33,533 bases of DNA from Catajapyx aquilonaris (GCA_000934665.2 KZ539207.1:1-33533), one strand, 5' to 3'. Shown: positions 13,701 through 17,840, counted from the stretch's first letter. Notes: generated from the sequence alone by a model not told the origin. Program-made: numbers and translations.

Positions 13701-15361
13701 AACAACTCGAGCGACCAAGCAGCCGAATTACGTCATGTCATCTAAGGCTTTCTCCCCCCTCAACTTCTGGCTAGGGATAAATAAAATGTCGAAGGCTACG
13801 CTTTAGTTGACGGTCCACCCCCTGTTTATGCGGTTGATATGGCTTGGACATATACTATTTGCGGAGTGACTAATCGAAAACGACAAAAGAAAACAGAGAG
13901 ACCCAGATTTGGTGGAAATTGAGGTTGAAGCGCCTGGAATCAGACATATCAACACGAATTATAAGAGACCGCAGGCCTAGAAAGACGCTTCTCTCGCTAT
14001 TTTTTTTCTAGGCCAGCGGACGTGGTGGACATATTGTTAATCGCCTTCCCATATCTTATATAGTCAAAGGACATCATAGATATCGGTCATCTGCCCGTAT
14101 TGTAATATGGGAATATAGGCGGCTTGTACTGGTTGGGTGCTGGGGGGGAAAGAAAATCTCCCCCATGGGTCCCCCCTTGTATGTCCCCCCAGTCTTTTCC
14201 CAAACCCTGGCCGATGACAGTGACGCGCGTGGACAGCTTGGGCGCCCGCCGAAACTGCCTTATCAAAACAACCCGCCGCCTCTCTCCTAATCCTCTCTGT
14301 GCCTCTCCCATATGCCATGGTCTCCCCCCACACACCTCCATAGTCCCCAGCCAACAGATTTAAAAAAAAGATAGACCTTTGTGTATACATGTTGACGTGT
14401 GCTGCTAACTTTAGCAGAGGATGAAAAATGTGGGTGGTATTTGCACTGCTAATTACTGCTACCTTAGCAATATCAGTGTTGTTGATAATGGTACTGATAA
14501 CTTAGCAGTGGGTTCGATCTTAACCGCGGCTTGGTGTTTGATTACTCCGTAACGTAATGGACGGAAGAGTTAAGAATCCGGACGCCTTACTTTTTATTCA
14601 GAGAGAGATACAGAGAGAGAGAGAGAAAAGGGGCAAGAAGATGCTAATGAAAAGTAAGTTAAATCTGGGGAAAAGGTTCGAGCGGTTGTTGAGGGGGAGG
14701 TAGGGAGGATTTAGAGAGAAAGAGGGGGGGAGGAAGTTGGCAAGGCTGTGCTAATCCCTCCCCTACGAAAAGAGAATGGGGGGGAAGAAAGAAAAAAAAA
14801 AGAACGCATACATTTTCAAGCCGCAGTTAATCAAGCCTTTTTATCGCTCGGAGGAACAACCGCCAGGAATTTCAGCGAATCCGAAGTTAGAGAAAAAGAG
14901 GTGGTGGAGGTGGAGGGGAGGGTTGCTTCTCCCCTACCTTTGCAGTTAGATTTTCTTCTTCTTCTTCTTTTCAGTGTCTTTTGGTGAGTGAGGAAGAAGG
15001 AAAGTTGTGGCAACGCCGCCCCCCCCCCCTCCAAGTTTAATTTCCCGAAAAGGGAAGGCCTAACCCATAAAATAGCTCTCACTTTACACACACCCACACA
15101 CCCTTAACTATTCAGGGGTTGAAATTAATCGCCGTCGTGCCCTCTTTGCTCGATTGCTTCAGGCCTCTCTTTTCTCAGCAGACCATTGTTCAGACCCCCA
15201 CTTCGATCAGAGTGTTGAGCAAGGAGGAGCGCCACTCCGACATAAGACTCTGATGCTTTTAACGCAAATGGTTGGGCATCCCCAAAAGTTACGCCGTTTC
15301 TGCAAAACAAATTCCGTGTATAGGCTACAGGTTTCCGATATGTGTATACTTTTGTACTGTA

Positions 15362-15580
15362 CATTGTTGGACGTTAATGGTGGCGCACTGGTGGCGACAA
15401 GAGCCGTTGGCGGCAGAATGGAAATTTTCCCTCCGGATGACCCGCCTTCACTTAGATCAAGCGAAGGGGGTCGTCCGGAGGGAAACGAATCAAATGAAGG
15501 TGGTCATACTTTTCGATTCGCCCTTTTGCCGCCATCGCATCGTGGTGCCACTAGTGCGCCACCGTTAATGTCCAGCACTG
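15362..15580. mobile_element. Tc1/mariner-type palindromic MITE with branched secondary structure
   Basis: TA on both sides (15360-15361, 15581-15582). The right end reads CAGTGCTGGACATTAA on the - strand, similar to the Tc1 terminus CAGTGCTGG; the left end is CATTGTTGGACGTTAA. Arms 15358-15395 and 15547-15584 pair over 38 bp (33 Watson-Crick, 4 G-T, 1 mismatch). Confidence 0.65.
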
Positions 15581-17840
15581 TACAAATTCGACAATCTCCT
15601 GCGTATGTGTATATAATGATGTCGAAAGCTCGTGTGTGTGTATATAGTTTGGGTTTATGAACGGCCTGGGTGTAATGTGGGTTTTGCTGTGTTGGTGTGT
15701 GTCGTGGCCATGGGATGGTAGGGAGATGGGGAGAGGTGGGGGCGAGAGGGGGGAGGATTTCACGCGTGGTAGAGTGAGAGGGGCTGCCCCCCCCATTCCA
15801 CAACCCCAAAGCCCCATCGCAGGGGCAATACCAAATGAACCAATGCGGTGGGGTTGGGGGTCCCGCCCTTAGCAACGGCGGTGGGGGCTGCCTGGCAACG
15901 GCCCAGCACACACACACACCCACACACATTGCACTATATGTACACTGCTGGATCACCAAACTATACTGATATCAAAATGACCAGACACGTTGGAACACCC
16001 TGTACTGGAGGCTTTCAGAGAAATGAGAGCCATTGCTTTCTGGGCGGTTGTCGGCGAGTGTGGGAGGAATCACAGCAGAAGGGCGGCGGGGCATATTCGC
16101 CCCGGGGCAGGCTGCCACACTCACACACGATATTCCGCCCCGGGGGCGCACGGGGCCAGCGGGCCTTTAATTACGTTACATCCAACCCAGCTTTTTTTCC
16201 CCCATCTCTCTCTCTCTCTCAGTGTGTTCAAACCCACAGCAGTTTACCTAGCTAGTCCGATGGACATGCCCCCATTTTTATTATATAGAGAGCTCGTTCC
16301 TCCCCAAAACATCCCAGGCAGATTTTTCATCGCCATTTTAAACGCTAACGAGCTAACGGGACAACAATCCGCAGGGGGGAAACTTTACACTTAATCAACA
16401 CGTAAGAACACACAACTGACGGAGATCACTGCGAAAATAGTGTTTGCAACGAGCCGAAACATAAAGCATTACGCTCTGCAAAAGGCAACTACACTACTAC
16501 CCCTTTTTCAGCAATTATCCTGGAAGTAATGCAACAGACGTCATTTGCTTATTATGCAACATTGAACATTTATCACAAATAAATGCATTACTTTATGCAA
16601 ACATTAGACGCAATGGAGTCATGCAATAGTTAATAGCTACCGGATATTGTAACTACTTTTACAGAAAATAACATGGCTTTGTAAGCTTTATTATTCGAAA
16701 AAGGACACGACCCATCTACAAGCACAGCGGTCACATTTGCATGTCCGTAAAATTCTCCCCGTCCGGCCATTGTTTTCTCTAGTGTCACAAACCACATGTT
16801 AGCGGACGACCATCAAAATTTTTAGAAGCATTATTTCCAACAATTACACTCAACTTTTCCTTATGCTGCGAACTAGTTTTAATGCAAATAACTGCAACAA
16901 TGCTTATTTCTGTCCTCACAACGCGACATTATTTACACGGCCGCTTTGACTTGAACCGATCTCACACACACACTCACGCATAATTCAGACACACACAGCC
17001 CACATACGCACAGAGTCGCCCAGCTGAGTCCGAGCAAGGGAATCAGCAGGCCTTGTAACCAAAATATTTTTCCAAGTTCCGGCCCTTCTATCCAGCCGAC
17101 TATATATAGCCCCCCGCCATCCCTCTCCCCCTCTTCCCGAGCCAACATTTTCTCTGTAGCTCATTACAATATTCGGTCGTGGAGTAATTTGACGGACCTA
17201 TACCCTAATTAATCCGTTTCCCCACCCATCCCTGTGCTGTCTATAGAGTCTTATATCGCCCCCCCCAGACCGGTTAGCAATTCGACCTCATCCGAGTGCA
17301 AGTCACGCGCTTCTCTCTCGGATTCCATGCTAAATCGGCCTCAACCTGTCTTACTCTATCGATGCTACTGTAGTAGTGAACCACATGGAAACACTGGCTG
17401 TCCAGGTAGTACCATACACCTCACATTGATGGCACCCAAGCCTATTCGGATGATCTTTACTACGCGACGACGAAGTGGCAGGAGTCGGGGTGGAGGCAGA
17501 GTGCATCTCGCCGTGGCAAAGCCACAATAACGTTCGTTGGCTCCACCCCTTCACTTCGTCACGAAGTTCGTCACGAAGTAAAGATCAGCCGTCAATTCTG
17601 TCTCCACCAAACTGAGCCATCAAGAATGTTGTTGATGGGTACATTTTGTTGAATCCAGGTGTGTATGCACGCATAACACGCATTTATGGTGGTGGATGGC
17701 GTGGTTTGGGAGGGCCCCAGGAGCCGAAGGGGGTGGTGGTGGTGGTTTGGTGTTGGAGGCCCGGGATGGAGGAGCCTCTGGCAGGGACACGGCCAACTAA
17801 TGAGGCGTGAAATGGGCGCCTGAGGGGGTGGGGACGGGGA

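What the first reader, a model, noticed from the sequence alone, without database searches (positions are those of the whole stretch)
15358..15584. 227-nt three-way-junction fold with + strand G-U bias inside a Tc1-ended element
Seen: P1 15358-15395/15547-15584 (38 bp: 33 WC, 4 G-U, 1 U-C, with another G-U just inside) continues imperfectly into P2 15408-15418/15524-15534 (11 bp, 1 G-U). It then branches into P3 15426-15453/15459-15485 (18 uninterrupted bp including 1 G-U, then a bulge and 1 A-C) and directly adjacent P4 (CGAATC/GATTCG, 15486-15520). Transition-type differences are 7 G-U against 1 A-C on +. Neutral decay of a DNA palindrome should give about equal numbers (one-sided binomial 9/256, small sample). 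Inference: the fold may be kept in a + strand RNA (or ssDNA), for example a MITE-derived structured ncRNA, a Dicer/Drosha substrate (P3 is 60 nt, pre-miRNA size) or an ADAR substrate. Internal branching is unusual for a simple fold-back MITE.
Basis: partly seen in the sequence, partly recalled or inferred. Interest (0 to 1): 0.75.

Follow-up and report, generated by a model that had tools for sequence, protein, structure and literature searches.

The report
Decayed Tc1-type MITE hairpin, ordinary
The branched 227-base fold is an old, mutated copy of a small palindromic jumping-DNA element whose side branch comes from a 24-base insertion, and its one-strand wobble-pair excess is too weak to show that an RNA structure is being preserved.

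Summary
As RNA the + strand folds at -152.0 kcal/mol (z -17) and the - strand at -130.1. It is a 219-bp palindromic MITE (15362-15580) with TA duplications on both sides and CAGTG-type ends. About 60 contigs per DNA run match its ends at 80-90%.

The three-way junction is not a designed branch. A 24-nt insert (15487-15510) in the right arm resembles the element's own apex. It is missing from the left arm and from other copies. Removing it in silico leaves one unbranched hairpin. P4 alone is no better than chance, and P3 folds equally well on both strands.

On homologous pairing the arms show 79 Watson-Crick pairs, 6 G·T, 1 A·C and 8 transversion-type mismatches. The 6-to-1 split gives a two-sided p of 0.125. 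By strand energy difference, 3 of 128 configurations are as extreme. This is a post hoc pick in a MITE-rich genome. Nine of the 15 arm differences break pairing on both strands.

No Rfam family matches. No RNA data or homologue alignment could be obtained, so an RNA role is untested, not refuted.

The parts
15362..15580 (.). Body of the palindromic non-coding element (MITE), 219 bp; the right end reads CAGTGCTGGAC on the - strand, the left end CATTGTTGGAC
   Evidence: Sequence; self-alignment with its reverse complement; related contigs stop matching at 15582-15585; no Pfam domain in any overlapping frame
15360..15361 (.). Left TA target-site duplication
   Evidence: Sequence; it mirrors the TA at 15581-15582
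15581..15582 (.). Right TA target-site duplication
   Evidence: Sequence; alignments of related contigs end at 15582-15585 with unrelated sequence beyond (tables 7 and 8)
15362..15415 (+). Left terminal inverted repeat. It carries GGTGGCG twice at 11-bp spacing (15379-15385, 15390-15396). It is matched by few related contigs
   Evidence: (I1); summed depth about 93-287 against a single-copy 21-26
15527..15580 (-). Right terminal inverted repeat, the arm closest to the family. It differs from the family majority at 15546 (T, family C) and 15552 (T, family C)
   Evidence: summed depth up to about 2066 against about 24; table 3
15426..15485 (.). Centre at about 15456, with equal energy on both strands
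   Evidence: I6; -46.5 kcal/mol on + and on -
15487..15510 (+). 24-nt insert in the right arm that creates the P4 branch; a probable partial duplication of the apex segment 15457-15473
   Evidence: 14 of 17 identical; 13 of 2000 shuffles score as well; absent from the left arm and from the 6-7 related contigs per run whose P3-arm-like sequence abuts 15511 (table 7)
15355..15361 (+). TACTGTA, a word shaped like a Tc1-type excision footprint; it abuts the element and shares its left TA
   Evidence: 7 TACWGTA in the window against 2.33 expected; 2 of 100 shuffles reach 7

Best explanation
This is one old, decayed copy of a palindromic, non-coding DNA transposon (a MITE) of the Tc1/mariner type, in non-coding DNA of an animal genome rich in such elements. 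It was pasted into a TA dinucleotide by a transposase supplied in trans that recognises the inverted ends. This step is inferred from established Tc1/mariner biology and is not shown here. The element was originally a single long fold-back. The apparent three-way junction arose when about 24 nt, a partial copy of the apex, was inserted into the right arm. The + strand excess of G-U-compatible mismatches is what ordinary point mutation left behind, mostly C-to-T changes at CpG-type sites that happened to fall on the + strand. It is a small-sample outcome, not the trace of selection on an RNA. Shown: the fold, the TA duplications, the shared ends in many genomic contigs, the insert, and the mismatch spectrum. 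Inferred: the mode of mobilisation, the direction of most substitutions, and the neutrality of the bias.
For: The fold and coordinates are confirmed. TA lies at 15360-61 and 15581-82, with CAGTG-type ends. In three DNA runs of one sample, 61, 61 and 64 contigs match at 80% or more (53, 52 and 56 of them below 90%). The matches are almost all on the terminal 40-75 nt, while the centre 15458-15479 is covered only by the element's own contig. 58% of what was laid continues into unlike sequence, as expected for several deletion derivatives that share ends. The family majority differs from this copy at 15522, 15546 and 15552, so the G-U pairs at 15396/15546 and 15390/15552 are private C-to-T changes (table 3). 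Six to 7 contigs per run carry P3-arm-like sequence directly against position 15511, so they lack the insert (table 7). The insert resembles the apex (13 of 2000 shuffles as good), and removing it in silico gives one unbranched hairpin. P4 has z -1.8 and P3 has equal energy on both strands. The arms show 79 WC, 6 G.T, 1 A.C and 8 transversion-type pairs. There is no Pfam domain in 144 frames of 75 aa or more and no Rfam hit. CpG o/e is 0.70 in the window and 1.10 in the element.
Against: The strand bias is not negligible. Only 3 of 128 flipped configurations are as extreme in strand energy difference, and only 1.8% of 600 neutral simulations are. The family evidence comes from assembled contigs summarised by a tool. 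I saw no alignment of full copies. Differences within about 30 nt of alignment ends were not listed, so most substitutions are not polarised. The loose-end consensus that shows absence of the insert has only 63-65% agreement. No autonomous partner was found, and the whole genome could not be searched. Expression was not tested.
Confidence: 0.8

Rival explanations
1. The element is the same MITE, but the G-U excess is a real mutational strand asymmetry. The locus would lie in a unit transcribed in the germline (a long intron or lncRNA) or on one side of a replication origin. C-to-T and A-to-G changes would then accumulate preferentially on the + strand, without any selection on structure.
For: All 6 G.T sites need a C-to-T or A-to-G change on the + strand, against 1 of the opposite kind. 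The changes at 15546 and 15552 are polarised as C-to-T on +. Transcription-associated compositional skews are reported in Drosophila introns (PMC5786239, abstract read).
Against: GC skew (0.013) and AT skew (-0.002) around the element (15001-16000) are essentially zero, and the skews wander in sign across the window. No exon or gene was found in the window. The sample is 7 sites.
Confidence: 0.1
2. The hairpin is transcribed on the + strand and kept by selection as a source of small RNAs (hpRNA/endo-siRNA or a young MITE-derived miRNA) or as an editing substrate.
For: The + strand fold is 21.9 kcal/mol more stable than the - strand fold. The bias is 6-7 to 1. MITE hairpins have given rise to miRNA genes (Made1 and hsa-mir-548, PMC1784062, abstract read). 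Hairpin RNA loci make endo-siRNAs in flies (PMC10317233, search listing only).
Against: Nine of 15 arm differences break + strand pairs. The branch is a copy-specific insert. P3, the pre-miRNA-sized part, has no strand preference. No Rfam family reaches threshold; the best is 21.3 bits against a gathering score of 111. Repeated TE hairpins are a known source of false miRNA calls (PMC3495686, abstract read).
Confidence: 0.05
3. The fold acts as single-stranded or cruciform DNA, for example as a hairpin that helps transposition or replication-slippage amplification of the element.
For: As DNA both strands fold strongly: + -82.5 kcal/mol (z -14.6) and - -75.9 (z -12.6).
Against: Any palindromic MITE gives this result. 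Tc1/mariner transposition acts on double-stranded ends (established knowledge, recalled). The left terminus has diverged from the right at 2 of its first 6 bases, so this copy is probably no longer a good substrate.
Confidence: 0.03

Closest known systems
[quoted passage not shown]
   Same: Small, non-coding, TA-flanked, with inverted ends shared among several derivatives whose internal sequences differ. One search shows related contigs that share the outer 45-75 nt and then diverge.
   Different: No autonomous partner could be sought here. This copy is nearly palindromic over its whole length, not only at short TIRs. It is old: arms 16% mismatched, relatives 80-90% alike.
Made1 MITEs, the source of the human hsa-mir-548 family (PMC1784062, abstract read)
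   Same: A near-perfect palindromic MITE that would form a very stable hairpin if transcribed.
   Different: Made1 is 80 bp and its hairpins are shown to yield mature miRNAs. This element is 219 bp and branched by an insert, with no evidence of expression or processing.
Drosophila hairpin RNA (hpRNA) loci that make endo-siRNAs (PMC10317233, search listing only)
   Same: A long, nearly perfect intramolecular duplex of about 100 bp would be a Dicer-2-type substrate (inference).
   Different: hpRNAs are defined by small-RNA output and have target genes. Neither is known here.
Strand assignment of structured RNAs from G-U pairs (RNAstrand; PMC1892782, passages read)
   Different: That method uses alignments of several homologues with conserved structure. 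Here there is a single sequence and 7 informative sites.

Membership tests
MITE of the Tc1/mariner (IS630-Tc1-mariner) superfamily | TA target-site duplication flanking the element | tested here: met
   TA at 15360-15361 and at 15581-15582; related contigs stop matching at 15582-15585
MITE of the Tc1/mariner (IS630-Tc1-mariner) superfamily | Terminal inverted repeats | tested here: met
   Arms 15358-15421/15521-15584 are 80% complementary. Homologous pairing over the whole element gives 79 WC of 94 pairs.
MITE of the Tc1/mariner (IS630-Tc1-mariner) superfamily | Small size and no coding capacity | tested here: met
   219 bp; none of the stop-to-stop frames that overlap it has a Pfam domain
MITE of the Tc1/mariner (IS630-Tc1-mariner) superfamily | Many dispersed copies that share the ends | tested here: met
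   61, 61 and 64 contigs in three runs of one sample, and 1 contig in a run of a second sample, match at 80% or more with unrelated flanks. Contigs are not a copy count.
MITE of the Tc1/mariner (IS630-Tc1-mariner) superfamily | Tc1-type terminal bases (CAGT...) next to the TA; the motif is recalled, not taken from a call | tested here: met
   The right end reads CAGTGC on the - strand. The left end reads CATTGT, 2 of 6 changed.
MITE of the Tc1/mariner (IS630-Tc1-mariner) superfamily | An autonomous element with matching TIRs and a DDE/D transposase in the same genome | not testable with these tools
   No genome is held for this window and there is no transposase remnant in the window. Earlier unchecked notes report Tc1-type transposase genes elsewhere in this genome.
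Known RNA family / miRNA precursor (Rfam) | Score at or above a family's gathering threshold | tested here: not met
   0 hits in the window at gathering thresholds. The best sub-threshold hits on P3 are 21.3 bits against 111 and 16.4 against 55.
Known RNA family / miRNA precursor (Rfam) | Small RNA reads from defined arm positions | not testable with these tools
   Only DNA contig runs were available
Structured ncRNA with a conserved three-way junction | The branch is present and the pairs covary in homologues | tested here: not met
   The 24-nt insert that makes P4 is absent from the left arm and from 6-7 related contigs per run (table 7, consensus agreement 63-65%). Covariation itself could not be tested because no homologue sequences were obtained.
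Structured ncRNA with a conserved three-way junction | Strand-specific conservation of pairing (G-U tolerated, disruptive changes avoided) | tested here: inconclusive
   6 G.T to 1 A.C, but also 8 transversion-type mismatches; p is between 0.02 and 0.125 depending on the statistic

The most novel reading that the evidence does not exclude
The + strand bias is real. This old MITE copy would have been exapted as a + strand hairpin RNA: an endo-siRNA or young miRNA precursor whose outer 38-bp stem tolerates only G-U changes. The 24-nt insert would create a junction that sets where the processing enzymes cut.
Probability: 0.05. Interest if true: 0.4.

Novelty: new member of a known kind. Interest (0 to 1): 0.1.

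Why it matters
It matters little in itself. This is one more decayed transposon hairpin in a genome that earlier notes describe as full of them. The useful lesson is methodological. A branched fold and a one-strand wobble excess in a single palindromic repeat can both come from ordinary decay: an indel in one arm and a handful of transitions at CpG-type sites. They should not be read as signs of a selected RNA without copies, orthologues or expression data. If the small-RNA reading were true, it would be another example of MITE-to-small-RNA exaptation, which is already known in principle.

Tried and rejected
2. The window holds no second copy or fragment (21-mer with 3 mismatches; blastn word size 7).
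3. Exact 19-mer scans of metagenome contigs (3 loci) and genome contigs (1 locus) gave matches that do not extend beyond 19-22 nt. These are chance hits, not homologues.
4. Sequencing runs: no RNA holder is listed. Only 4 DNA contig runs of one sample and 1 run of a second sample were available, so expression, small RNAs and editing are untested. One search showed no joint, meaning no contig with an empty site. That proves nothing.
5. A full-text search for the 11-nt terminal word in either orientation gave 71 papers. The 15 listed are primers or unrelated sequences, and none is a transposon paper. Dfam, Repbase and miRBase are not available here.
6. Earlier notes by place and by sequence returned nothing for this window.
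7. The Pfam scan of 144 frames gave only one sub-threshold hit (Osw5, 20.5 bits against 30), treated as noise. The gene context and transcribed strand are therefore unknown.
8. I considered and dropped the idea that P4 is an independent hairpin motif (5.7% of shuffles fold as well).
9. I considered and dropped the idea that P3 is a strand-specific pre-miRNA (same energy on both strands).
10. I did not realign the loose-end consensus strings by program. I compared them by eye only.

Full report
**Observation**

As RNA the + strand has a minimum free energy of -152.0 kcal/mol. Shuffles average -72.7, giving z -17.2, and 0 of 200 fold as well. The - strand folds at -130.1 kcal/mol (z -12.8). As DNA the values are -82.5 and -75.9 kcal/mol.

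The pair list confirms each helix:
- P1 has 33 Watson-Crick pairs, 4 G-U and 1 U-C, with a further G-U at 15396/15546.
- P2 has its G-U at 15416/15526.
- P3 has an 18-bp uninterrupted stem, a G-U at 15438/15473, a bulge at 15444 and an A-C at 15450/15462.
- P4 is the CGAATC/GATTCG stem.

**What the element is**

The palindrome proper runs from 15362 to 15580 (219 bp) and is flanked by TA at 15360-15361 and 15581-15582. Its right end reads CAGTGCTGGAC on the - strand. Its left end reads CATTGTTGGAC. The link of this end type to Tc1-like transposons is recalled knowledge, not a tool result.

No whole genome is held for this window, and the window has no second copy. I therefore laid public DNA contigs on 15150-15800. 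In three runs of one sample, which may be the source of this DNA, 61, 61 and 64 contigs matched at 80% or more. Of these, 53, 52 and 56 matched below 90%. One contig of a run from a second sample also matched.

The extra cover is confined to the ends. Summed depth reaches about 2066 at 15546-15567 and about 199-287 at 15370-15391, against about 21-26 in the flanks. The centre 15458-15479 is covered only by the element's own contig. Matches stop at 15582-15585 with unrelated sequence beyond. 58% of what was laid continues inward into unlike sequence.

This is the picture of a dispersed family of non-autonomous elements that share inverted ends but differ inside. The same is described for Tc1/mariner-derived MITE families in a mosquito (PMC3814204, abstract).

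No Pfam domain was found in any of 144 stop-to-stop frames of 75 aa or more in the window. One sub-threshold hit was ignored. The element is therefore non-coding, and its gene context is unknown. Earlier unchecked notes on the same genome describe an animal genome (arthropod in one note) full of MITE hairpins, Tc1-type transposase genes and excision scars.

**The branch**

Aligning the region with its own reverse complement shows one long fold-back centred near 15456. Its right arm carries extra sequence relative to the left: about 7 nt, and then about 24-25 nt at 15487-15510.

The loose-end table shows 6-7 related contigs per run whose sequence just before position 15511 resembles the 3' arm of P3. 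I read the consensus by eye; its agreement is 63-65%. Those copies therefore lack the insert, as the left arm does.

The insert resembles the element's own apex, with 14 of 17 bases identical to 15457-15473. Only 13 of 2000 shuffles of the insert score as well against the rest of the element. With the insert left out in silico the element folds as one unbranched hairpin, at -145.9 kcal/mol on + and -125.4 on -.

P4 alone is not better than chance (z -1.8; 5.7% of 300 shuffles fold as well). P3 alone has the same energy on both strands, -46.5 kcal/mol. The three-way junction is therefore a by-product of a small partial duplication in one arm of a simple fold-back. It is not a conserved architecture.

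**The G-U bias**

On homologous, DNA-level pairing there are 94 pairs: 79 Watson-Crick, 6 G.T on +, 1 A.C on + and 8 transversion-type.

The statistics are as follows:
- Six against one gives a two-sided binomial p of 0.125.
- I flipped each of the 7 transition-type pairs in all 128 combinations. Three combinations give a strand energy difference as extreme as the observed -21.9 kcal/mol.
- In 600 simulations of neutral decay of an idealised palindrome (7 transitions, 8 transversions), 1.8% are as extreme in either direction.

So the bias is real and nominally unusual at the 2-12% level. It is also a post hoc pick. The same look-up returned 126 notes on MITE or inverted-repeat features in this genome alone, one of which reports the same kind of weak G:U excess.

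Four points argue against selection for pairing:
- Nine of the 15 arm differences break + strand pairs.
- The G-U pairs at 15396/15546 and 15390/15552 are private C-to-T departures of this copy from the family majority. C is read in about 74-75% of the summed depth at both sites (table 3).
- Four of the 6 G.T sites and the A.C site lie at CpG/TpG/CpA contexts.
- The window is CpG-depleted (o/e 0.70) while the element is CpG-rich (1.10). CpG transitions are therefore the expected mode of decay.

A mutational strand asymmetry, for example transcription-associated as reported for Drosophila introns (PMC5786239, abstract), remains a possible non-selective cause. However, the local GC and AT skews are about zero.

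**Comparison with known RNAs**

No Rfam family reaches its gathering score anywhere in the window. A permissive scan of 15200-15750 gives only three sub-threshold miRNA-family matches on P3, on both strands. The best is 21.3 bits against a threshold of 111.

MITE hairpins can become miRNA genes (Made1 and mir-548, PMC1784062, abstract). Long hairpins make endo-siRNAs in flies (PMC10317233, search listing only). Transposon hairpins are also a known source of false miRNA annotations (PMC3495686, abstract). The strand logic of G-U pairs is established for alignments of homologues (PMC1892782, passages), not for one sequence with 7 informative sites.

**What could not be done**

No RNA run was available, so transcription, small RNAs and editing are untested. 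This is reported only as a gap. No homologue sequences could be retrieved for covariation analysis. Exact-word scans of the metagenome and prokaryote collections gave only chance 19-22-nt matches. Dfam, Repbase and miRBase are not available here. A full-text search for the terminal word found no transposon paper among the 15 of 71 papers listed.

**Verdict**

This is an ordinary, old Tc1/mariner-type palindromic MITE copy. Its branch is an insertion and its wobble bias is weak and unreplicated. I put 0.8 on neutral decay, 0.1 on strand-biased mutation, 0.05 on a selected + strand RNA and 0.03 on a DNA-level role.

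Noticed in passing
window 15355-15361: TACTGTA, the shape of a canonical Tc1-type excision footprint (TA + 3 terminal bases + TA), sits directly against the element and shares its left TA. The junction reads as if an earlier element had excised here and the present MITE then inserted into the second TA of the scar. 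TACWGTA occurs 7 times in the window against 2.33 expected, and 2 of 100 shuffles reach 7. The footprint shape is recalled knowledge and is echoed by earlier unchecked notes.
   Followed up: partly
window 15379-15396 (mirrored in 15546-15563): Each terminal repeat carries the word GGTGGCG twice, 11 bp apart (15379-15385 and 15390-15396). That is about one helical turn and may mark a pair of transposase-binding sites (inference only).
   Followed up: no
window 14900-15110 and 15690-15940: The MITE sits in a patch rich in G-runs, C-runs and CA/CACCC-type low-complexity words. One example is ACACACACCCACACAC at 15086 and again at 15912 (D1). The GC content of 15001-16000 is 0.52 against a window range of 0.36-0.52.
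   Followed up: no
window 17447-17591: This is the only other non-low-complexity inverted repeat in the window. Its 24-nt arms are 88% complementary with 97 nt between them (I9). It has no TA/CAGT-type ends, and a TACTGTA word lies about 75 nt upstream at 17366-17372.
   Followed up: partly
whole window: No Pfam domain was found in any of 144 stop-to-stop frames of 75 aa or more. The 33.5-kb window appears to be entirely non-coding: intergenic DNA or a very long intron.
   Followed up: partly
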